Assembly (NCBI GenBank): GCA_029260875.1
Contig: JAJDCL010000028.1
Coordinates: forward strand, 1,161 to 65,160
Source: Candidatus Saccharimonadota bacterium
GTDB taxonomy: Bacteria > Patescibacteriota > Saccharimonadia > Saccharimonadales > OFTM59
DNA: 64,000 nt
Direction: 5' to 3'
How positions within the stretch are numbered: position 1 is the stretch's first letter; the number at the start of each line of letters is the position of its first letter. The notes under the pieces are model-generated. The model was given only the letters and a program-made list of their open reading frames with translations. It did no database searches and was not told the DNA's origin. This document shows, in pieces, positions 12,756 through 23,063 of this stretch. The position numbers and the translations under genes are program-made.

Positions 12756-12949
12756 CTAGATTTATCCTTGTGTTTTATAATGATGATGGTCGTGTGGGTA
12801 CTTTTGTCTTAATGGGCGGATTTCTACTCGCAGGCTTATACAAACCATTTTTATCCGTAGTCTTGCGGATGATAAAACCCCAAAGTCGTTTTATCTACAA
12901 AGGCCTGGCGACGGCCAACTCTTCAAATCCTAAAAAGGATGGTTTGTAT

Positions 12950-13291
12950 ATGAATTATCAAAATCCGGACGGCGTAACCGTCCACGATGGGTTCCCAAAC
13001 CCAGCCACCGACACTTCACTCCAACCTCTTGATCTAAACAGCCTGTTAATAACACACACCGCTACAACCTACTTAATGCGCCTGTCTGGAGATGAATGGC
13101 AGGCTTTAGGCATTTTTGACGGCGATATATTAATTGTTGACCGATCCGTAAATGCCCGCCCAAATGATTTAGTTGTCTGGACCAAAGCCGACCGGTTCAT
13201 CATCAGCCACGAACACCAAGTAGAGGAGGGCAGCCCCGTCTGGGGCGTAATCACCTCAACCATCCACCAGTTTAGAAAGGTGAGCAGATGA
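12950..13291 (+). CDS. UmuD-like S24-fold protein lacking the Ser/Lys dyad and the cleavage site
   Basis: It aligns by eye to E. coli UmuD from CGFPSPA onward (here DGFPNPA...LDLNSLLITH...SGDEW...DGDILIVD...). I prefer the ATG at 12950, preceded by AAAAGGA, over the track start at 12770. The stop overlaps the umuC start in ATGA. Confidence 0.7.
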   Translation: MNYQNPDGVTVHDGFPNPATDTSLQPLDLNSLLITHTATTYLMRLSGDEWQALGIFDGDILIVDRSVNARPNDLVVWTKADRFIISHEHQVEEGSPVWGVITSTIHQFRKVSR

Positions 13292-14574
13292 AGTCACCAG
13301 TTTTTGCACTTATAGACTGCAATAACTTCTTCGTTTCATGTGAGAGGCTATTCAGGCCGGACCTGGAAGGCAAACCAGTAGTGGTTATGTCGTCCGGCGA
13401 TGGCTGCGTGGTGGCGCGCAGCAACGAGGCCAAGGCGCTTGGCATTCCAATGGGCGCGCCAGTATTCAAATATCGTCATATCTTTAAAGCACAGGGCGTA
13501 GTGCAGTTCAGCGGGAACTTTGAATTGTACGGTGATATTTCTCGTCGTATTACCGATGTACTAACTTCTGTTACCCCAAAAATTGAGGTGTATTCGGTGG
13601 ATGAATCGTTTTTAGATCTTGGCGAGCTAGCCATTGATGATTACGAGGCGTGGGGCAGGACAGTGAGCGACAAAATCTGGCAATGGATCGGGGTGCCGGT
13701 ATCCGTAGGCATAGCGCCTACCAAAACTCTCGCCAAACTAGCTGCCGACCAGGTCAAAAAAGACCCCGACCTCAATAGCGTCCTGAACCTCATAAGTGTG
13801 AAAGGTTTATCCTTTCACACTTGGTTGCGGACTACGCCTATCCAGGATGTGTGGGGTGTTGGGTGGCGGTCGGCACCGAAAATGAAGGCCGAGGGGATCC
13901 ATAACGCACTGCAACTCAGCCAGTTAAGGCCACAACGTGCTCAGCAGTTGATGGGTATTCACGGCCGGCAACTAGTAGCAGAATTAAACGGCCTGAGTTG
14001 CTATCCGCTAGAGCGAGAAGAAAGGGCACAAAAAAGCATAGCCCGTACCCGCACGTTTGGCGAAGATACAAGTGAGCTTGGTTCTTTAGAGGCAGCATTG
14101 GCATCATTTACCACCAAAGCCGCCTTCCGGTTGCGCGCAGACCGTCAGCTTGCCAAGCGAGCCGGTGTGTTTGCCAGCACCAATAAGCACAAACCCGGCT
14201 ACCGGACGTGGCAACGGGAGGTGTGTTTCCCGGTTGCGACAGCTGATACGGGCAAACTTATCGGAAGTGTCATAGACTTATTTCGTGAGTTTTACAATCC
14301 GCACGTTAAGTACCACAGGGCGGGGGTCTGGTTACAAGATTTTGTATCGGCTGATTATTTGCAAACTGACGTGTTCGGGGCTGTAAATGTAGTGGAAGAA
14401 GACCGATCTAAGGCCCGTATGCAAACCCTAGATTCCATCAACGAGCGTTTCGGTCGCAGCACCATCCGCTACGCCACCGAAGATCTCGGCAACGCCTGGC
14501 AGCCCAAGCATCAGCTACGCAGCCCCCGCTATGTCACCCGCTGGAACGAACTGCCGGTTGTTCGCAGTAGCTAA
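13288..14574 (+). CDS. umuC: Y-family translesion DNA polymerase (UmuC-like)
   Basis: 428 aa with the N-terminus FALIDCNNFFVSCERLFRPDLEGKPVVV and the motif YSVDESFLD. Translationally coupled to the umuD-like gene. Confidence 0.9.
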   Translation: MKSPVFALIDCNNFFVSCERLFRPDLEGKPVVVMSSGDGCVVARSNEAKALGIPMGAPVFKYRHIFKAQGVVQFSGNFELYGDISRRITDVLTSVTPKIEVYSVDESFLDLGELAIDDYEAWGRTVSDKIWQWIGVPVSVGIAPTKTLAKLAADQVKKDPDLNSVLNLISVKGLSFHTWLRTTPIQDVWGVGWRSAPKMKAEGIHNALQLSQLRPQRAQQLMGIHGRQLVAELNGLSCYPLEREERAQKSIARTRTFGEDTSELGSLEAALASFTTKAAFRLRADRQLAKRAGVFASTNKHKPGYRTWQREVCFPVATADTGKLIGSVIDLFREFYNPHVKYHRAGVWLQDFVSADYLQTDVFGAVNVVEEDRSKARMQTLDSINERFGRSTIRYATEDLGNAWQPKHQLRSPRYVTRWNELPVVRSS

Positions 14575-14610: not shown

Positions 14611-14799
14611 GGCCCCGTCGTCTAGTGGTCCAAGATATCTGCATCTTTACCCCACAAAACAGGTTTTGCGGGGACCCCGTATCATCCAGAAGATCGCGGG
14701 TTCGGTGTACGAAGAACGGAGTGATAAGATAAGCTTGCTTAATCTTAGCGCGAGTACCGCAGGAAAGAGCGTAGCGATATCCCGCAGATTTAACAATAA
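14611..14799 (+). ncRNA. tRNA-derived structured module (Glu/Asp-like 5' half and split T-arm, no acceptor 3' strand); pseudo-tRNA or novel tRNA-like RNA
   Basis: GGCCCCG-TC-GTCT-AGTGGTCCA-AGAT-A-TCTGC-ATCTTTA occupies 14611-14649. A 24-nt hairpin follows at 14650-14673, then CCAGA-AGATC-GCGGG-TTCG at 14686-14704. A structured insert of about 75 nt follows, then CCCGC at 14781-14785. No CGGGGCC acceptor partner precedes tRNA-Glu. Confidence 0.3.
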
Positions 14800-14874
14800 G
14801 GTCCCATCGTCTAGCGGTTAGGACACCAGGTTCTCATCCTGGCAACAGGGGTTCGATTCCCCTTGGGATCACCA
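14800..14874 (+). tRNA. tRNA-Glu(CUC), CCA encoded
   Basis: Sequence is GGTCCCATCGTCTAGCGGTTAGGACACCAGGTTCTCATCCTGGCAACAGGGGTTCGATTCCCCTTGGGATCACCA. The anticodon stem is CCAGG/CCTGG, the loop is TT-CTC-AT and the T-loop is GGTTCGATTCC. Confidence 0.9.
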
Positions 14875-16375
14875 CAAGAGACTCATCTACATCAGATGGG
14901 TCTTTTTTGTTTGCTATAACAGATAACAGCGGGCTTAATTTTGCGGTTCCAAAACCGTTTTCAAAGTCATATACGATTCCATCTGGAAAAAGTAACTTTT
15001 GAATATCTTGTCGTATCTTGGTATTTGCACGGTTCCAGAATATGTCAGGTGTGGTTATGAAACTCATTGCATCATCTACGATCTGTTCTTTTTCCTTTAC
15101 GTACTGGTCGGCCTCAATTTGCTCATCCTCTAGATCATTAATCTTTTCTGCAATATTGGCGATCTGAGCCTGCTTATCCTCCTCAGTGATCTTATCCAAG
15201 ATAAACTTTTCTGTGGTAGCTTTTCTAAGTTGGCGGTAATAGTCGATCTCCTTGCTTATGCGTGCGGCGTTCTCAACAGCTTGGCCATACTCATCGTTCC
15301 ACGCTCTGAGCACGATTACCTTGTATAGCTTGGTGATACCACTGAGGGGTCTTAGGTTCTCGAGGTACTCCCTGAATAATTTATGCGTTATATCAGCATC
15401 TGCGCTGGCTTTTCTGCCAGTTACTTTCTTTTTGCAGGTAGGCTGATTGCAATGGTACATGGGGTAGTAGCTACCACTCCTGCCTCTAGACGAGCTGGCT
15501 GTAAGTGCCTTGCTGCAATTTGAGCACAGTAAGGTGCCTCTCAATGGGAACATGTCATCGCCACGAAGTACGTAGGTCTTTTTTGAGCCCTGTATCAAGT
15601 CAATGTTCTTGTAGATTACTTCCTCATCAACCAACGCCTTGTGCATGCCTCTATGGACTTTAGGGGATAGCTTATTCTTGGTATAACCCGCATAGATTAG
15701 ATTCTGGAGTATCTTTTTCAATGCATCAGTTGATTTTGGCTTACCACTCTTGGTCTGTATGCCTTGCGTAAACGCATAGCGTGCAATCTGTGCAAGTGAA
15801 AAAGTACCAGTTGAGAACTTAACGAGAACATCAGTAATCTTTGATGCGTAGACAGGATCGGCAACAACACGTGCGTTCTTTTTAGTGTAGCCAATAGGTG
15901 CCGAGTGTGGCCAGCCACCTTGCTCGACCCTTACACGCATGCCGCTCACTGTACGTATCGCACGGATCTCATTATCGAACTGTGCCGCAGCTGCAAGGAT
16001 TGCCTCAAGAAATCTGCCGACAGGATCATCATCAATAGGCTCAGTAACAGATACAATCCTCACACCATACTTAGCAAGTGCAACCTTAATACCATAGTAA
16101 TCACCTAGGTTGCGTGCCAGTCGATCAATTTTCCAGATGTATAGAATCTCAACCTGATTCTTTTTATCTTTGACGTATTGGAGTAGGTTCTGTAACTCTG
16201 GTCGATCTATGAACTTGGCCGATTCGCCTCGCTCTCTGAATATGTTTTGTTCTGGAACTAGAGTTTTCTGATCTTGTGCAAACTTTTTACACTCTTTCTC
16301 TTGAGAATCTAGGCTGGTTTTGCCATCAACTTGTTCCTTTGTGGAGACACGTGTATAGATAATTCCAACGCTCAT
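14834..16375 (-). CDS. Large serine recombinase (integrase)
   Basis: 513 aa. The N-terminal resolvase domain has IIYTRVSTKEQ (catalytic Ser) and IDRLARN. The recombinase domain has GGWPHSAPIGY. A Cys-rich zinc ribbon (LLCSNCSKAL...YHCNQPTCKKK) and a coiled-coil tail follow. The 3' end is antisense to the terminator and tRNA-Glu. Confidence 0.9.
   Translation of the reverse strand: MSVGIIYTRVSTKEQVDGKTSLDSQEKECKKFAQDQKTLVPEQNIFRERGESAKFIDRPELQNLLQYVKDKKNQVEILYIWKIDRLARNLGDYYGIKVALAKYGVRIVSVTEPIDDDPVGRFLEAILAAAAQFDNEIRAIRTVSGMRVRVEQGGWPHSAPIGYTKKNARVVADPVYASKITDVLVKFSTGTFSLAQIARYAFTQGIQTKSGKPKSTDALKKILQNLIYAGYTKNKLSPKVHRGMHKALVDEEVIYKNIDLIQGSKKTYVLRGDDMFPLRGTLLCSNCSKALTASSSRGRSGSYYPMYHCNQPTCKKKVTGRKASADADITHKLFREYLENLRPLSGITKLYKVIVLRAWNDEYGQAVENAARISKEIDYYRQLRKATTEKFILDKITEEDKQAQIANIAEKINDLEDEQIEADQYVKEKEQIVDDAMSFITTPDIFWNRANTKIRQDIQKLLFPDGIVYDFENGFGTAKLSPLLSVIANKKDPSDVDESLVVIPRGIEPLLPG
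14881..14908 (+). terminator. Intrinsic terminator of the tRNA-Glu unit; also part of the left att-like repeat
   Basis: ACTCATCT-ACATC-AGATGGGT forms 8 bp including one G.U, followed by CTTTTTT. Confidence 0.7.
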
Positions 16376-16413
16376 GGAACCAGTATATAACGAAACTGTA
16401 ACTGTTATGAAAA

Positions 16414-16572
16414 CTAATTTAGATGTTTTGGAACCGAACTACGTATTGTTTCTCTCGCAACGGATTCCAGTAACACAATCAGGCGTTCTATCTCATCATC
16501 AGAAAACTGCTTGAACTCTGTACCAAGCAGTTTTCTCGCCTCTTTAATTGTGATGATGGGATCTGGTTGCAT
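16414..16572 (-). CDS. Small ORF (52 aa) upstream of and co-oriented with the recombinase; possible directionality or DNA-binding factor
   Basis: Own translation gives MQPDPIITIKEARKLLGTEFKQFSDDEIERLIVLLESVARETIRSSVPKHLN. It is below the track's size cut-off and ends 38 nt before the recombinase start. Confidence 0.35.
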   Translation of the reverse strand: MQPDPIITIKEARKLLGTEFKQFSDDEIERLIVLLESVARETIRSSVPKHLN

Positions 16573-16743
16573 TTGTGGCTCTCGTGCGAGCCAAGAAAAA
16601 AACAGCCCGCAACTTTAATAGTTGTCTTGGCTGTTTGCCTATGCAGGAAATTATACAGCTCACAGCAAAATCCGTAAATGTTACCACGGTGTTAACAACA
16701 TAGCCTATAGGTGTTTCTACCCCCGATGTAATAGAATAAAAAG

Positions 16744-16864
16744 GTCTAAACCAACAATTGAGGCGCACCAACAGTGCGTGATTAAGCCTTGTAATGGGCA
16801 TCACGCAGGCAGTAGGGCTTAATAACTCTATTGTTGGTTTAGACACCAGCGTGGTGTCCTTTTT
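16744..16864 (+). ncRNA. Candidate sRNA of about 120 nt: closed three-way junction plus intrinsic terminator
   Basis: P1 pairs 16744-16758 with 16830-16844 (15 perfect bp). P2 is 16763-16779. P3 pairs 16781-16788 with 16816-16823. The terminator GACACCA-GCG-TGGTGTC-CTTTTT lies at 16842-16864. A TAGAAT -10 lies at 16732-16737. Confidence 0.4.
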
Positions 16865-16881
16865 AATTTGAGGAGAAAATA

Positions 16882-16986
16882 ATGGGTTTCATTAGAAACG
16901 ATTGGCATGAGCAAGGTATTGTTACCAAGATACTACTTGTTCTTGGTCTGATCATCGCAGCCATTGTTTGGCTTGCTAAAAACTGA
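16882..16986 (+). CDS. 34-aa single-TM micro-protein
   Basis: AGGAG at 16871-16875 lies 6 nt before the ATG. The product is MGFIRNDWHEQGIVTKILLVLGLIIAAIVWLAKN. Below the track's size cut-off. Confidence 0.4.
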   Translation: MGFIRNDWHEQGIVTKILLVLGLIIAAIVWLAKN

Positions 16987-17087
16987 TTGTTTTTCAGTTT
17001 TTTCAGTTACAAAAGCGGGTCTGAAAAACAATTGTTTTTCGTTTTTCCGTTTTAGAAAATCAGCTTAAAAAGTTGATTGTTTTTCAA
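16985..17087. repeat. Iteron/operator array: ATTGTTTTTC three times at exact 45-bp spacing, the middle copy within a perfect 18-bp palindrome
   Basis: ATTGTTTTTC occurs at 16986-16995, 17031-17040 and 17076-17085. GAAAAACAATTGTTTTTC occupies 17023-17040. Confidence 0.6.
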
Positions 17088-17148
17088 TTAATCAATTTTC
17101 CCACCAACTCCTTTGAATAAGATAGGCATCAGGGGTACTATATTAGTA

Positions 17149-18846
17149 ATGAAAGCAACTAAGGTAACAGTCCATAACTACCGATCGATACACGATGCCA
17201 CCTTTGATCTGGCTGACTATGCTCTGCTCATCGGATCCAACAATGCTGGCAAGAGTACATTTGCTAACGCCATCAGGGTTTTTTATGAAAAAGACGGTTT
17301 CAAGTACGATTCAAAGAAAGATTACCCATTTGATCTAGTAAAAGATGCCGAGCGTGAATCTTGGGTGGAAATATGGTTTGAGCTCGATCAAGATGAGTAC
17401 GATAACCTCGCAGAGAAGTACAAGCAAGTTGATAAGGTGTTGAAAGTTCGCAGGTATCTAGAAACCGCAACTTACAAGAACCACGAGGGCAAGGCTGGAT
17501 CTGGTCAGATTTTTGGCTACAAGACTGACGGCACCTTAGATAACGAGGCGTTTTATGGCGCAAAGAACGTTCAAAGTGGAAAGTTCGGAGAGCTGATTTT
17601 TATACCTGCCATCAGTAAGGTAGATGATCACACAAAGTTTAGCGGTGCATCTGCGTTGAGAGACCTTGTAACTGATATCCTCTCTGGTACCACTGACTTT
17701 GATGCCAACTACGGCGCATTAGAGGAAAACTTTACGACTTTCTCTAGTGCTATGCAATCCTCCAGTACCGCCGATGGCCGTTCCCTAAAGGCTGTTGAGG
17801 ACTCGCTGACTGGCATGCTAGAGGATTGGGGTATTGGGTTCAAGTTGACTTGGAAAACTCCCTCGATAGCTGAGATCATCAAGTCCATGATTAACTCCAC
17901 CTACACCGACCTAGCGCACGACAAAGAGATATTGATAACAGATGCTGGCTCTGGTTTTCAGCGACACCTTATCTACAGTGTTATCAAGACGGGTGCAGAT
18001 TTTGCTGCAAAAAAACCTAAAGCTAAAAAGACTAGCTTTGAACCAGAGCTTAGATGGATCGTATTCGAGGAACCAGAGGCTTTTCTCCATCCTCCGCAGC
18101 AAAACGAGCTTTCACGTAGCTTGCAGAAACTATCCGAGCTAGATAGTACACAGGTGTTATGCACCACTCACTCGCCGAACTTTGTAAACAAGAATATGCA
18201 GGCCATCACCAGCGTTGCTCGTGTGCAGAAAAACAAGAAAGGCTATGCTGATTTCTATCAGATTAGCGACACGACTTGGCAAGATATCACCGACAATAAC
18301 CAACTTATTAGCGCACTGCCATCAGCACCAGCGGCGCACCCTGATGATCTAGATCCTGAAATGGAGGCCATCAAGTACGCAATTTATCTGAATCCAGATC
18401 GTGCATGCATGTTCTTTGCTAAGAGAGTGCTGATTGTTGAGGGCGCAACAGAGGTTGCGTTAATAAACCACTTGATTGATATCGGTGAAATAAAGGCGAG
18501 CCTATCTGGCCTGCATGTAATTGATGCAATTGGCAAGTTCAACATCCATAGGTTTATGAAACTCCTTGAGTGTTTGGGCATTGAGCACTCCGTCTTGCAT
18601 GATGCTGATGCACCAGCAAAGACCTTACAGCAAGAGATTAATCAGCTTATCCAAGATTCCTCCAATACTTTTACGTACAAGATTGAAACGCTTGACCCTG
18701 ATCTAGAAACTTACCTAGGCCTGCCTGCGGTTGGTTCACGCCACGATCGTAAGCCACAGAGTGCGATCTATAACTACAACAACAGCAACTACGACACAGC
18801 AAAGATGGCCAGTTTCAAAACTCTGATTGAGAGCCTTGTTTCCTAG
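17149..18846 (+). CDS. OLD-family nuclease (ABC-type ATPase + C-terminal TOPRIM), stand-alone
   Basis: Motifs are Walker A GSNNAGKST, Walker B IVFEEPEAFLHP, H-loop TTHSP, and TOPRIM LIVEGATE ... HDADA. I prefer the ATG at 17149 over the track's TTG at 17113, which is in the same frame. Confidence 0.85.
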   Translation: MKATKVTVHNYRSIHDATFDLADYALLIGSNNAGKSTFANAIRVFYEKDGFKYDSKKDYPFDLVKDAERESWVEIWFELDQDEYDNLAEKYKQVDKVLKVRRYLETATYKNHEGKAGSGQIFGYKTDGTLDNEAFYGAKNVQSGKFGELIFIPAISKVDDHTKFSGASALRDLVTDILSGTTDFDANYGALEENFTTFSSAMQSSSTADGRSLKAVEDSLTGMLEDWGIGFKLTWKTPSIAEIIKSMINSTYTDLAHDKEILITDAGSGFQRHLIYSVIKTGADFAAKKPKAKKTSFEPELRWIVFEEPEAFLHPPQQNELSRSLQKLSELDSTQVLCTTHSPNFVNKNMQAITSVARVQKNKKGYADFYQISDTTWQDITDNNQLISALPSAPAAHPDDLDPEMEAIKYAIYLNPDRACMFFAKRVLIVEGATEVALINHLIDIGEIKASLSGLHVIDAIGKFNIHRFMKLLECLGIEHSVLHDADAPAKTLQQEINQLIQDSSNTFTYKIETLDPDLETYLGLPAVGSRHDRKPQSAIYNYNNSNYDTAKMASFKTLIESLVS

Positions 18847-19151
18847 CTAGCAGCTAGGTTTCCATCACTATTACTCAAACAGATACAGGAGTGAGTTGCC
18901 GCACAGCGTTAACTATCTGCCACATAGCTATTAGTTCTCGCTTGATTTGTTTCCAGTTCGCACCTATCAAGCTCACCATTTAGAAGCTCATCTACTAGAT
19001 GGGCTTTTTACATGGCTCATGCTCAACAAAACTGGCGGTTTACCGTATACTGAAGCATAAGCGCGTTTTTACACGCGATATTTCCATATGGCGGGCAATT
19101 TATGTACACACAAAAGACCAAAATTAGTACGACATCGGATGGGCTGCGTTA

Positions 19152-21937: not shown

Positions 21938-22597
21938 ATGAGGATAAACGTTTACGTAGCTGCTGCTACAGGCTTAAGCCGTCGCGCAGCGGATAGGGCG
22001 GTGGCTGTGGGCAGAGTTGAGATCAATGGCCAGCCAGTTAAATTGGGTCAAACCGTAGGCCCGAATGATTCGGTAAGTCTTGACAAGCGCGCTATTACAC
22101 CGCCCGTCAAGACCACCACCATCATGCTAAATAAGCCAGTCGGCTACGTCTGTTCGCGCGACGGGCAGGGCAGCCGAACTATTTATAACTTGCTACCCCC
22201 GCATCTACGTAAGCTGAAACCGATTGGCAGGCTAGACAAAGATTCCTCTGGTTTGCTACTAATGACAGACGACGGTCGGTTGTCATATCAGCTAACTCAT
22301 CCAAGTTTTAAAAAAACTAAGATTTATGAAATCCGGCTAGACCGTCCGCTCACACCAGAAGATCACGACAAGATCACAACTAATGGTGTGCAGCTACATG
22401 ATGGCATAAGTAAGTTTGAACTTAACATAGTTGATGGCAAGAGCTTTGAATGGCAGGTCAGCATGCAAGAAGGCCGTAATCGCCAAATCCGCCGCACATT
22501 CGGCTCCCTCGGCTACGTTTTAACAAAACTCCACCGCACCCACTTTGGCTCTTACAAACTCGGCCATTTACAGTCAGGAAAATGGCGCTTACAATAG
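21938..22597 (+). CDS. Pseudouridine synthase, RsuA/RluB family (S4 domain + catalytic GRLDKDSSGLLL)
   Basis: 219 aa. It carries the catalytic Asp motif RLDKDSSGLLLMTDDG and a C-terminal NRQIRR. Confidence 0.85.
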   Translation: MRINVYVAAATGLSRRAADRAVAVGRVEINGQPVKLGQTVGPNDSVSLDKRAITPPVKTTTIMLNKPVGYVCSRDGQGSRTIYNLLPPHLRKLKPIGRLDKDSSGLLLMTDDGRLSYQLTHPSFKKTKIYEIRLDRPLTPEDHDKITTNGVQLHDGISKFELNIVDGKSFEWQVSMQEGRNRQIRRTFGSLGYVLTKLHRTHFGSYKLGHLQSGKWRLQ

Positions 22598-22601
22598 AAG
22601 C

Positions 22602-23063
22602 ATGGCGCTAGGGATAAAAGACGTGCGAGCAGTCATGATCGAGGCAGTTGAAACATTGATATTGCCACGATTTGACAGAATGGAGACTCGGCTGGACGGT
22701 GTAGAAACGCGGCTGGACGGAGTGGAAACCAGACTGGACGGTGTAGAAACGCGGCTAGACGGAGTGGAAACCAGACTGGCCGGTGTGGAAACTCGGCTTG
22801 GTAGACTCGAGCTTAGCCATGATGAATTAGGCCGTCGCTTTGGGGCCATAGAAGCAGGCATGGCCCAACTAGACTCTATCGATAATAGGCTCAAAGCTCT
22901 CGAAAACGACATCAGAGAAATTTACAAAATACTGAACGAGAAGCCACTACACATTGATAAGACGTATCAAAAACTATCCGACAAACAAAAACTGGTTCGC
23001 CTCCACCAAGAGACTCTTGCTCTCGCTCAGAAAATGGGCGTAGCATTGCCTGGGTCTAGCTAA
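22602..23063 (+). CDS. Coiled-coil protein with six tandem ETRLDGV heptads
   Basis: The ATG at 22602 avoids overlap with the upstream gene; the track start at 22545 is in the same frame. Sequence includes RMETRLDGVETRLDGVETRLDGVETRLDGVETRLAGVETRLGRLE. Confidence 0.55.
   Translation: MALGIKDVRAVMIEAVETLILPRFDRMETRLDGVETRLDGVETRLDGVETRLDGVETRLAGVETRLGRLELSHDELGRRFGAIEAGMAQLDSIDNRLKALENDIREIYKILNEKPLHIDKTYQKLSDKQKLVRLHQETLALAQKMGVALPGSS
22680..22805 (+). repeat. Tandem repeat: six 21-nt units, with the middle four forming two near-identical 42-nt units
   Basis: Units begin at 22680, 22701, 22722, 22743, 22764 and 22785. Units 22701-22742 and 22743-22784 differ at 2 positions. Confidence 0.85.

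What the first reader, a model, noticed from the sequence alone, without database searches (positions are those of the whole stretch)
14834..14910. Recombinase ORF reads antisense through the terminator and into tRNA-Glu; its stop codon lies in the anticodon loop
Seen: the last ~25 codons of the recombinase ORF (...ANKKDPSDVDESLVVIPRGIEPLLPG-TGA) are the reverse complement of the tRNA-Glu terminator and the tRNA 3' half. The TGA is the complement of 14834-14836, inside the anticodon loop. The right-hand repeat read in the equivalent frame (...AAA AGC CCA TCT AGT AGA TGA) gives ...KSPSSR-stop. Inference: the crossover site probably lies inside the 3' end of the recombinase gene, around the shared CCCATCT. 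Integration would then swap the native C-terminus for a tail encoded by host tRNA and terminator sequence. An excised circle would restore a shorter, tRNA-independent ORF end. An att site inside an integrase gene is known for some archaeal virus integrases, but I am not aware of it for large serine recombinases.
Basis: inference. Interest (0 to 1): 0.55.

Follow-up and report, generated by a model that had tools for sequence, protein, structure and literature searches.

The report
tRNA-targeting serine integrase swaps its tail
A 4.1-kb mobile element sits directly after a tRNA-Glu gene, and because its insertion site lies inside the end of its own serine-recombinase gene, insertion replaces the enzyme's conserved 32-residue tail with 11 residues read off the back of the tRNA; a large, apparently undescribed family of serine integrases that target tRNA genes shares this arrangement.

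Summary
A 513-aa large serine recombinase (LSR) ORF (14834-16375, minus strand) runs antisense through a hairpin and into tRNA-Glu(CTC). Its TGA stop overlaps the anticodon.

The details are wrong.

- **Crossover:** it lies in TCACCA, the last six bases of the tRNA (14869-14874, repeated at 18973-18978), not in the hairpin's CCCATCT.
- **Hairpin beside the ORF:** it is element DNA, a replacement tRNA terminator embedded antisense in the coding sequence. The right-hand hairpin is the host's displaced terminator.
- **Excised ORF:** it is longer, 534 aa. The missing 32 codons sit as an orphan at the island's far end (18878-18973) and are under purifying selection.

Main evidence:
- The same element (91% identity) sits at tRNA-Glu in another genome, and similarity stops exactly at the core.
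- Close relatives occur as 3.5-6.3-kb circular contigs with intact 532-534-aa ORFs and no tRNA.
- 100 of the 120 best homologues end in tRNA-antisense peptides at a fixed spacing.

The closest precedent is the tyrosine integrase of phage Mx8. I found none for serine recombinases. What the tail does is unknown.

The parts
14800..14874 (+). Host tRNA-Glu(CTC), intact, with encoded CCA. It forms the B arm of attL.
   Evidence: ARAGORN; Rfam tRNA 62 bits. Its 3' half is identical to that of the tRNA-Glu(TTC) at the second insertion, L211.
14869..14874 (.). attL copy of the 6-bp core TCACCA (tRNA positions 71-76). The crossover lies within it.
   Evidence: It is the only sequence shared in register by attL and attR. 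Joining at it gives the 534-aa ORF. The L211 comparison puts the element boundary here.
14875..18978 (.). Integrated mobile element, 4104 bp: LSR gene, a 52-aa ORF, an Old nuclease gene and the orphan LSR tail.
   Evidence: blastn at 91% over 4181 nt between window 18979..14800 and L211. Close relatives assemble as circles of 3.5-6.3 kb, including L001 at 4124 bp.
14876..14912 (+). Element-borne hairpin plus T-run (the P' arm). It acts as a replacement intrinsic terminator for tRNA-Glu and is embedded antisense in LSR codons ~489-500 (NKKDPSDVDESL).
   Evidence: Terminator scan. Fold -15.5 kcal/mol, z = -5.05. A hairpin plus T-run sits at the same place, with different stems, in L001, L002, L004, L037, L082, L208, L210 and L211. 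The matching protein segment is predicted disordered.
14834..16375 (-). LSR gene in its integrated form (513 aa). Residues 1-502 are element-encoded. Residues 503-513 (IPRGIEPLLPG) and the stop come from the antisense of the tRNA (14834-14869).
   Evidence: ORF list. Pfam Resolvase 1e-29, Recombinase 8.7e-7, Zn_ribbon_recom 1e-3. Foldseek matches to full-length SPbeta, Bxb1 and phiC31 integrases.
16414..16572 (-). Conserved 52-aa ORF immediately upstream of the LSR gene. It belongs to the element core and is a candidate regulator or directionality factor (inferred).
   Evidence: Found at the same position in L001 and L082 at 51-65% identity, and at 96% identity in L211. No Pfam, PHROG or PADLOC match.
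17113..18846 (+). Cargo: an OLD-family nuclease (AAA_15 ATPase plus TOPRIM), a single-gene anti-phage defence candidate.
   Evidence: Pfam AAA_15 7.7e-32 and OLD-like_TOPRIM 2.4e-17. PADLOC 'Old' 2.6e-60.
18875..18979 (-). Orphan native tail of the LSR (the P arm and beyond). It comprises 32 codons, SLIGANWKQIKRELIAMWQIVNAVRQLTPVSV, plus a stop, and is preceded by an ATG that the junction creates.
   Evidence: Translation. Tail HMM E = 1.6e-20. pS far exceeds pN against relatives: 0.74/0.12, 0.59/0.21, 0.45/0.17.
18973..18978 (.). attR copy of the core TCACCA.
18982..19012 (+). Host's original tRNA-Glu terminator (hairpin plus T-run, the B' arm), displaced 4.1 kb by the insertion.
   Evidence: Fold -13.7 kcal/mol, z = -5.49. 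It is not shared with L211, which has an unrelated terminator hairpin at this position. tRNA-Glu sites with no LSR detected on the contig (L112, L162) carry similar AGCTCATCT...GATGGGCTTTTT terminators.

Best explanation
A 4.1-kb integrative element (14875-18978) encodes a large serine recombinase whose attP site lies inside the 3' end of its own gene.

**What the sequence shows**
- In the free, attP form the ORF is 534 aa. It has a canonical LSR body (residues 1-~480), a disordered linker of about 25 residues, and a C-terminal amphipathic helix of about 23 residues. The antisense strand of the linker codons is a terminator hairpin plus the att core.
- The recombinase exchanges strands within TCACCA, the last six bases of tRNA-Glu. 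The tRNA therefore stays entirely host-encoded and intact.
- The host's own terminator is pushed 4.1 kb away. The element's hairpin plus T-run, embedded antisense in the LSR coding sequence, takes its place.
- The LSR gene loses its last 32 codons, which remain as an orphan at the far junction. The gene instead reads 11 codons of antisense tRNA to a TGA in the anticodon loop, giving 513 aa. Excision re-joins the tail.
- This layout is the rule for a large LSR clade in Saccharibacteria and other Patescibacteria, with members in other phyla. The clade targets tRNA-Met, Glu, Ala, Leu, Lys, Pro and others.

**What is inferred**
- The hairpin actually terminates tRNA transcription.
- The 513-aa form is still active, since excision must occur.
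- The tail swap changes the enzyme's behaviour.
For: 1. **Second insertion.** L211 carries the same element at 91% identity over 4181 nt, equal to window 18979..14800, at tRNA-Glu(TTC) in a different genome. On the attR side identity begins exactly at (A)TGGTGA. The host flanks are unrelated, and each is a different hairpin plus T-run.
2. **ORF reconstruction.** Joining the left part of attL to the right part of attR at the core gives a 534-aa ORF. It is 76.8% identical to P0003 and gapless over residues 1-534.
3. **Circular relatives.** P0003 lies on a 4154-bp contig with a 30-nt terminal overlap (a 4124-bp circle) and no tRNA. The P0012 element is an identical 4499-bp circle in four assemblies, with overlaps of 141, 141, 55 and 30 nt and different rotations. 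L208 is a 6325-bp circle and L003 a 5454-bp circle.
4. **Tail identity and selection.** The orphan tail matches the native-tail HMM at E = 1.6e-20. Its codons show pS of 0.45-0.74 against pN of 0.12-0.21. The motif LV-x(5-7)-WN[QK][IL]xxE persists in homologues of 33-38% identity from Acidobacteria.
5. **Family pattern.** 100 of 120 homologues have tRNA-antisense tails at a fixed spacing. 36 junctions were found in fetched loci. Tails follow the tRNA, not the LSR phylogeny.
6. **Independent att pairs.** L004 has core CTTTGGTAG, an orphan tail, and both a host and an element terminator. L037 and L082 are tandem arrays in which an LSR is fused to the neighbouring element's tail.
7. **Embedded hairpin.** A hairpin plus T-run is kept with different stems across relatives. 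The window has GACCCATCT/AGATGAGTC and L211 has GACCTTTCC/GGAAAAGTC. The encoded peptide segment is predicted disordered, pLDDT below 50 for residues 483-506, and is followed by a helix at 507-529.
8. **Enzyme family.** LSR identity rests on Pfam and Foldseek (E = 1e-19 to SPbeta integrase complexes).
Against: - No empty attB was found for this genome. An exact 22-mer of the predicted attB gave no metagenome hit. None of the 120 loci carrying the same tRNA-Glu 3' half was a close syntenic relative.
- 'Circular' contigs can also come from tandem identical copies, and tandem arrays do exist in this family. They prove the P-O-P' junction and the 534-aa ORF, not free circles as such.
- Nothing here shows recombinase activity, the exact crossover dinucleotide, or termination at the embedded hairpin.
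- The hairpin is clear in the closer clade but is absent or doubtful in many distant members; only 16 of 36 junctions pass a loose scan.
- Some acidobacterial homologues have intact tails in large chromosomal contigs with no tRNA nearby. The model does not explain these.
Confidence: 0.9

Rival explanations
1. The crossover lies in the shared CCCATCT of the two hairpins, the hairpin and the tRNA part of the ORF are both host DNA, and the excised circle carries a shorter ORF ending ...KKxPSSR.
For: The two hairpins share TCATCTAC and AGATGGG. LSR att sites are imperfect palindromes, so a hairpin is a plausible site.
Against: The L211 copy of the element includes the left hairpin. It stops being similar at TCACCA, before the right hairpin, and L211's host flank is unrelated. 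Circular relatives carry the hairpin inside the ORF. Joining in the hairpin gives an ORF with no similarity to any homologue, whereas joining at TCACCA gives a gapless 534-aa match.
Confidence: 0.02
2. The tRNA-antisense tail is a native, element-borne part of the protein. On this view attP carries a copy of the tRNA's 3' half, as in tyrosine-integrase islands, and the ORF always ends that way.
For: Homologues down to 40% identity share GIEP/GLEP-type tails.
Against: Circular and attP forms have no tRNA and end in a different, conserved tail. No tRNA fragment lies at the far end of the island; an orphan protein tail does. LSRs only 23-36% identical to this one have exactly the same tail when they sit at the same tRNA, which shows it is tRNA sequence and not an evolving protein segment.
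Confidence: 0.02
3. The layout is as described, but the tail swap does not affect recombination. attP merely happens to overlap the ORF end, and the 513-aa and 534-aa proteins behave alike.
For: The tail is joined by a disordered linker to an otherwise complete LSR fold. Integrated copies are intact and full length in about 100 homologues, so the 513-aa form is presumably functional. In tandem arrays LSRs carry foreign tails.
Against: Tail codons are under purifying selection. The motif is conserved across phyla well beyond the roughly 25 bp an att half-site would need. In SPbeta integrase an extreme C-terminal element (F532) is reported to matter for directionality (PMC11722253, citing Abe et al. 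2021). In Mx8 the analogous swap is reported to change integrase properties (PMC6070905).
Confidence: 0.35
4. The small circles are autonomous plasmids, and the chromosomal copies are dead-end integrations that no longer excise.
For: The circles assembled repeatedly in independent samples. No directionality factor has been identified.
Against: The orphan tails are intact and under purifying selection even when displaced. 91%-identical copies sit at tRNA-Glu genes in two different genomes. No replication gene was recognised on the circles.
Confidence: 0.1

Closest known systems
Myxophage Mx8 integrase IntP/IntX (tyrosine recombinase)
   Same: attP lies inside the integrase coding sequence. Integration therefore creates a new 3' end and a different C-terminus, and this is reported to alter the enzyme's properties ('reversible covalent modification'). 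Sources: PMC6070905 and PMC4383910, citing Tojo 1996. From my own recollection, not checked here: the target is a tRNA-Asp gene.
   Different: Mx8 Int is a tyrosine recombinase with a different catalytic mechanism. From my own recollection, not checked here: about 112 residues are replaced by 13 in Mx8, and no antisense terminator embedded in the gene is described. Here the enzyme is a large serine recombinase, the core is only 6 bp at the very end of the tRNA, and the tRNA is not split.
SSV1-type archaeal integrases (fuselloviruses, pRN-related elements)
   Same: attP lies inside the int gene and the targets are tRNA genes, so the integrase ORF extends across attP (PMC4383910; PMC8371274 listed).
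   Different: They are tyrosine recombinases in archaea. Integration splits the gene into two fragments and inactivates it, rather than swapping a short C-terminal tail.
Canonical large serine integrases (phiC31, Bxb1, A118/LI, TP901-1, SPbeta SprA)
   Same: Same enzyme family and domain order: resolvase domain, recombinase domain, and a zinc ribbon with an inserted coiled coil. The att identity is very short. The model matches SPbeta, Bxb1 and phiC31 structures.
   Different: Reviews describe elements with serine recombinases as inserting within and disrupting protein-coding genes (PMC5704250). [quoted passage not shown] From my own knowledge, not checked here: the attP sites of the named phage integrases lie outside the int ORF. 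In this family attP is intragenic, the target is the tRNA's 3' terminus, and the gene product changes with integration state.
Integration-dependent immunity of mycobacteriophages (BPs, Brujita and relatives)
   Same: attP lies inside a phage gene, so integration into a tRNA gene truncates the product and removes a C-terminal element. The protein's activity then depends on integration state. This rests on my own knowledge (Broussard et al. 2013), which I did not check here.
   Different: The gene concerned is the repressor, not the integrase, and the integrase is a tyrosine recombinase.
Tycheposons of Prochlorococcus that carry a large serine recombinase
   Same: They are small cargo-carrying integrative elements in islands next to tRNA genes, and 27 of 937 encode an LSR (bioRxiv 10.1101/2020.12.28.424599).
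   Different: The text I read does not describe an intragenic attP, a tail swap or an embedded terminator. Relatedness to this LSR clade was not tested.
[quoted passage not shown]
   Same: They show that the extreme C-terminus of an LSR, or a module tethered to it by a flexible linker, can set recombination direction (PMC11722253; PMC5737554, listed).
   Different: In SprA the C-terminus is constant and direction is set by a separate protein (SprB). The fusions are artificial. No sequence similarity between the tails could be shown.

Membership tests
Large serine recombinase (serine integrase) | N-terminal resolvase-type catalytic domain with the catalytic serine and conserved arginines | tested here: met
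   Pfam PF00239 at E = 1e-29 over residues 5-155. Y7, R9, S11, R58, D84, R85 and R88 are invariant in 28-72 homologues. phmmer matches the TP901-1 integrase catalytic domain.
Large serine recombinase (serine integrase) | C-terminal recombinase domain plus a zinc-ribbon domain with an inserted coiled coil | tested here: met
   PF07508 at E = 8.7e-7. PF13408 scores only 19.9 bits, below its 25.3 cut-off, but C284, C287, C309 and C314 are conserved. The AF2 model has long paired helices at 348-392 and 398-441. Foldseek E = 1e-19 over 534 columns to SPbeta integrase, with further matches to Bxb1, phiC31 and LI.
Large serine recombinase (serine integrase) | Short att sites whose attP and attB share only a few base pairs around the crossover | tested here: met
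   Only TCACCA (6 bp) is shared by attL and attR in the window. L004 shares 9 bp and L037 shares 9 bp.
Large serine recombinase (serine integrase) | Catalysis of attP x attB recombination through a 2-bp staggered cut, with direction reversed by a directionality factor | not testable with these tools
   This needs biochemistry. The conserved 52-aa ORF is only a candidate factor.
Mx8-type / SSV-type integrases with intragenic attP | attP lies within the integrase ORF, so integration alters the gene product | tested here: met
Mx8-type / SSV-type integrases with intragenic attP | Tyrosine recombinase catalytic domain | tested here: not met
   The protein is a serine recombinase. It therefore works like Mx8 IntP/IntX but is not a member of that family.
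tRNA-gene genomic islands of the classical (Islander) type | attP carries a fragment of the tRNA gene, so a displaced tRNA fragment marks the far end of the island | tested here: not met
   The far end carries no tRNA fragment beyond the 6-bp core. It carries an orphan protein tail and the displaced host terminator instead. The circles contain no tRNA.
OLD-family nuclease (cargo gene) | ABC/AAA-type ATPase domain followed by a TOPRIM nuclease domain | tested here: met
   AAA_15 at 7.7e-32 and OLD-like_TOPRIM at 2.4e-17. PADLOC 'Old' at 2.6e-60. Defence activity was not tested.

The most novel reading that the evidence does not exclude
The tail swap may be a built-in state sensor for a serine integrase. 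The 534-aa enzyme made from the free circle carries a tethered C-terminal helix and favours attP x attB integration. The 513-aa enzyme made from the integrated copy lacks the helix and becomes competent, or responsive to the co-transcribed 52-aa protein, for attL x attR excision. The element's own topology would then set recombination direction, rather than regulated expression of a separate directionality factor. Alongside this, the element would keep its target tRNA functional with a terminator encoded antisense within the recombinase's linker codons.
Probability: 0.25. Interest if true: 0.85.

Novelty: new variant of a known kind. Interest (0 to 1): 0.66.

Why it matters
- **It contradicts a working rule of mobile-element biology.** The rule says tyrosine integrases take tRNA genes and serine integrases interrupt protein-coding genes. 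Here a large clade of serine integrases targets the extreme 3' end of tRNA genes without damaging them. Island finders that look for a displaced tRNA fragment cannot see these elements.
- **It gives serine recombinases their first apparent case of an intragenic attP with a reversible change of gene product.** Until now this was a curiosity of Mx8 and SSV-type tyrosine integrases. It offers a natural system to ask whether the extreme C-terminus of an LSR controls direction.
- **The antisense terminator inside a coding linker is a clear case of dual constraint.** RNA structure on one strand dictates a disordered peptide on the other.
- **There are practical uses.** These are minimal 3.5-6.3-kb integrating modules, consisting of an LSR and a 52-aa ORF with short att sites. 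Their targets are conserved tRNA sequences in Saccharibacteria and other Patescibacteria, where genetic tools are scarce. They also carry defence genes such as Old and HEPN_AbiU2.

Tried and rejected
1. **Empty attB for this genome.** An exact 22-mer of the predicted attB gave no metagenome hit. A scan with the tRNA-Glu 3' half returned 120 loci, but no close syntenic relative. Exact-protein look-ups of the flanking kinase and response regulator found nothing. The UmuC look-up found one identical contig that ends inside the tRNA.
Rejected; see the rival explanations.
3. **Second tRNA or intron-containing tRNA upstream (14612-14799).** ARAGORN with intron options and Rfam at E <= 1 found nothing, and the fold is not better than shuffles.
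4. **The 52-aa ORF.** No Pfam, PHROG or PADLOC match. The big protein search returned only the L211 copy, because the word index is too coarse for 52 aa.
5. **Linking the tail to SprA's C-terminal element by sequence.** phmmer and profile searches of the PDB matched only catalytic domains. The Abe 2021 paper is not held.
6. **Embedded terminator as a universal family feature.** Rejected. It is clear in the closer clade but seen in only 16 of 36 junctions with a loose scan.
7. **Literature.** Nine searches found no description of an LSR with an intragenic attP or of tRNA 3'-end targeting by this clade. Absence from this library is not proof of absence.
Full report
**1. Observation.**
The window holds tRNA-Glu(CTC) at 14800-14874 on the plus strand (ARAGORN; Rfam 62 bits). 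A 513-aa ORF runs on the minus strand from 16375 to 14834. Its last residues...ANKKDPSDVDESLVVIPRGIEPLLPG, are read from the reverse complement of two features. One is a hairpin plus T-run at 14876-14912. The other is the tRNA's 3' half. The TGA stop is the complement of 14834-14836 and overlaps the anticodon at 14833-14835. The protein is a large serine recombinase (LSR): Pfam Resolvase 1e-29, Recombinase 8.7e-7 and a sub-threshold zinc ribbon. A second hairpin at 18982-19008 shares TCATCTAC and AGATGGG with the first.

**2. The tail pattern is a family trait.**
A search of 5.8 billion proteins returned 1660 relatives at E <= 1e-10. Of the best 120, 100 end in peptides that are antisense translations of tRNA T-arms and acceptor stems. 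Examples are ...LVAATGIEPVTLGL...LVAASGLEPLTPGL...AGLEPATNRL and ...RGIEPLLPG. In 96 of those 100, the spacing from the conserved GFGT motif to GxEP is exactly 27 residues. The conserved 'LV' or 'VV' just before the tRNA-derived part is the translation of N-TGG-T-N. That is the antisense of the encoded CCA and an A discriminator base.

In species-representative genomes, LSR relatives of 24-42% identity abut an antisense tRNA. The tRNAs include Met, Glu, Leu, Ala, Lys, Pro and Asn. The hosts are Saccharibacteria, Paceibacterota, Kaiserbacteria, Yanofskybacteria, Doudnabacteria, Solirubrobacterales, Acidobacteriota and Bipolaricaulota. I counted 36 such junctions in the loci fetched. LSRs only 23-36% identical to the window's protein carry the identical VIPRGIEPLLPG tail when they sit at tRNA-Glu. 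The tail is therefore tRNA sequence, not an evolving protein segment.

**3. The native tail and the free form.**
Six of the 120 homologues instead end in a conserved tail of about 32 residues after the 'LV'. An example is ...LVSLVGAEWKQIKTELITMWQIVNEVRKLTPVAV, giving proteins of 532-534 aa.

These proteins lie on small contigs:
- P0003 is on a 4154-bp contig with a 30-nt terminal overlap, implying a 4124-bp circle, and no tRNA.
- The P0012 element was assembled four times independently as the same 4499-bp circle. The overlaps are 141, 141, 55 and 30 nt, and the rotations differ.
- L208 is a 6325-bp circle. L003, a more distant relative, is a 5454-bp circle.

In the window, the minus strand just inside the right-hand hairpin reads stop-MVSLIGANWKQIKRELIAMWQIVNAVRQLTPVSV-stop. 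It matches a profile of the native tails at E = 1.6e-20. The only sequence shared in register between the two junctions is TGGTGA, which is TCACCA on the plus strand at 14869-14874 and 18973-18978. Joining the LSR gene to the orphan tail at that core gives a 534-aa ORF. It aligns with P0003 over residues 1-534 of both proteins, without gaps, at 76.8% identity.

**4. Decisive boundary test.**
The 90% cluster of the window's protein has a second member on a 15.4-kb contig from another sample, L211. blastn aligns window 18979..14800 to L211 at 91% identity over 4181 nt. That block is the island plus the tRNA gene, here tRNA-Glu(TTC) with an identical 3' half, set among different genes.

On the far side, identity starts exactly at (A)TGGTGA. 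Beyond it the window has its AGCTCATCTACTAGATGGGCTTTTT hairpin. L211 has an unrelated hairpin, AAAAGTTCGACAA...TTGTCGAACTTTTCTTTTT. Three conclusions follow:
- The crossover is in TCACCA.
- The right-hand hairpin is each host's own tRNA terminator, displaced by the insertion.
- The hairpin next to the LSR belongs to the element.

tRNA-Glu sites with no LSR detected on the contig (L112, L162) carry similar AGCTCATCT...GATGGGCT terminators. The element's hairpin may therefore mimic, or derive from, such a terminator. That last point is inference.

**5. Further att pairs.**
- L004 (Saccharibacteria, tRNA-Met) has the core CTTTGGTAG at both ends. It has an orphan tail about 7 kb away, a host terminator outside the element, and an element terminator inside the ORF (AGCCTC-TTCG-GAGGCT plus a T-run, read as KKLASEEAKN).
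- L037 is a tandem array at tRNA-Glu. The order is orphan tail, element 1 whose LSR is fused to an intact tail, then element 2 whose LSR reads through the tRNA. All three junctions share TGGTGACCC.
- L082 has the same logic. Its LSR carries a tail of a different subtype from the orphan tail that belongs to it.

The P arm loosely resembles the tRNA arm. CGAAC lies 12 nt from the core in the P arm and 13 nt from it in the B arm.

**6. Embedded terminator.**
In tRNA sense, the 38 nt after the tRNA fold at -15.5 kcal/mol (z = -5.05) and are followed by TTTTTTGTTT. The displaced host hairpin folds at -13.7 kcal/mol (z = -5.49). Relatives keep a hairpin plus T-run at the same place with unrelated stems: GACTCATC, ATCGCC, GTCACCA, GACTTTTC, AGCCTC and AGCCGA. 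Between the window and L211 the stem changes on both sides, from GACCCATCT/AGATGAGTC to GACCTTTCC/GGAAAAGTC, while the peptide changes from DPSDVDES to DLSDKEKS. Selection therefore acts on the structure, not on the peptide.

The AlphaFold2 model of the 534-aa form fits this (mean pLDDT 86). Residues 483-506, encoded by the hairpin and core, are disordered with pLDDT below 50. They are followed by a helix at 507-529 with pLDDT of about 70-76. The model as a whole matches the cryo-EM structures of SPbeta, Bxb1 and phiC31 integrases (Foldseek E = 1e-19 and weaker). The hairpin is not universal in distant members; only 16 of 36 junctions pass a loose scan.

**7. Is the tail functional?**
Tail codons compared among the window, L001 and L082 give pS of 0.74, 0.59 and 0.45 against pN of 0.12, 0.21 and 0.17. 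The motif LV-x(5-7)-W-N-[QK]-[IL]-x-x-E is kept in acidobacterial homologues of 33-38% identity. The first 8 or so codons may be constrained as the att P arm. The rest lie beyond any plausible att half-site, so the constraint there is on the protein.

What the tail does is not known. Two literature leads make a regulatory role plausible:
- In Mx8, a tyrosine integrase with attP inside int acquires a new 3' end on integration, with altered properties (PMC6070905; PMC4383910 citing Tojo 1996).
- In SPbeta integrase, an extreme C-terminal element around F532 is reported to matter for directionality and contacts the directionality factor (PMC11722253, citing Abe 2021).

Integrated copies are intact in about 100 homologues, and attP-form molecules exist. 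The 513-aa form is therefore probably still active (inference).

**8. The element.**
The island (14875-18978, 4104 bp) holds the LSR gene and a conserved 52-aa ORF directly upstream of it. That ORF is 51-65% identical in L001 and L082 and 96% identical in L211, with no family match. The island also holds an Old-type ATPase-TOPRIM nuclease (PADLOC Old 2.6e-60). Related circles carry other cargo, for example HEPN_AbiU2. These are minimal integrative defence islets. Their hosts are probably Saccharibacteria, judging from the organism names of the nearest genome loci.

**9. Comparison with what is known.**
The enzyme is a bona fide LSR. The layout works like Mx8 IntP/IntX and, more loosely, like SSV-type integrases. 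Those are tyrosine recombinases, so this is an analogue and not a member. It also differs from classical tRNA islands, because no tRNA fragment is duplicated; only 6 bp are shared.

[quoted passage not shown] A 2017 review describes serine-recombinase elements as inserting within, and disrupting, genes (PMC5704250). Tycheposons include 27 LSR-bearing elements in tRNA-adjacent islands, but the text I read gives no such detail. Nine searches found no description of this arrangement. That is weak evidence of novelty, not proof.

**10. Verdict.**
The structural model is well supported (confidence 0.9). The functional meaning of the tail swap is open. I rate this a new variant of a known kind, with interest 0.66.

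Noticed in passing
window 14612-14799: Just upstream of tRNA-Glu lies a sequence that starts like the 5' half of a Glu-type tRNA (GGCCCCGTCGTCTAGTGGTCC...) but has no recognisable 3' half. ARAGORN, including its intron options, and Rfam do not call it. Its fold is no better than shuffles (z = -0.68). It could be a decayed tRNA or a leader sequence.
   Followed up: partly
L037 1-17540; L082 900-4979: Both are tandem arrays of related elements at one tRNA. The LSR of the distal element is fused to the neighbouring element's tail, so tails are exchanged between elements. In L037 the distal LSR is also frameshifted.
   Followed up: partly
window 18977-18979; L037 18-20; L004 ~4599; L082 ~975: The junction core (N-TGGTGA or N-TGGTAG) creates an ATG or TTG directly in frame with the orphan tail. 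In principle the displaced tail could be translated as a free peptide of about 34 aa. No promoter or ribosome-binding site was evident.
   Followed up: no
L008, L013, L016 (acidobacterial contigs of 120 kb to 1.5 Mb): LSR relatives with intact WNQL-type tails sit in large chromosomal contigs with no tRNA within 10 kb. The model does not explain them. They may be tandem arrays, a different site choice, or large extrachromosomal replicons.
   Followed up: no
L010, L014, L017: These LSR ORFs end in tRNA-antisense-like peptides (for example ...LVAGAGIAPATSRL...), yet ARAGORN calls no tRNA there. The cause could be tRNA remnants or unusual tRNA genes.
   Followed up: no
window attB/attP arms: 14845-14905 and 18945-19010: The P and B arms share CGAAC at 12 and 13 nt from the core. 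In the window the P' and B' arms share CTCATCTAC at 7 and 8 nt from the core. The roughly 4-5-bp offset of canonical LSR attP and attB half-sites is therefore not evident. In L211 the B' arm is unrelated, so that half-site seems barely constrained.
   Followed up: partly
window 22674-22799: Five to six tandem 21-nt repeats encode the heptad RLDGVET, repeated inside a 172-aa ORF (22545-23063).
   Followed up: no
window 12770-14574: A UmuD-like (Peptidase_S24) and UmuC-like (IMS family) gene pair lies immediately upstream of the tRNA-Glu locus. An identical 4.4-kb Logan contig (L203) stops inside the tRNA at 14828, probably at an assembly branch between tRNA-Glu isoacceptors.
   Followed up: partly
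L208 696-1400; L204 and L207: Related circles carry other small cargo, including a HEPN_AbiU2 gene, an HTH_38 protein and several unannotated ORFs. No recognisable replication gene was found. The family looks like a vehicle for single-gene defence systems.
   Followed up: no
L097, L099, L104, L105, L144, L151, L179, L199 and others (downstream of tRNA-Glu): In many metagenome contigs the tRNA-Glu terminator is followed at once by TTGGTGC...TCGAACC. This looks like a convergent antisense tRNA 3' end or another att-like junction. It was not examined.
   Followed up: no
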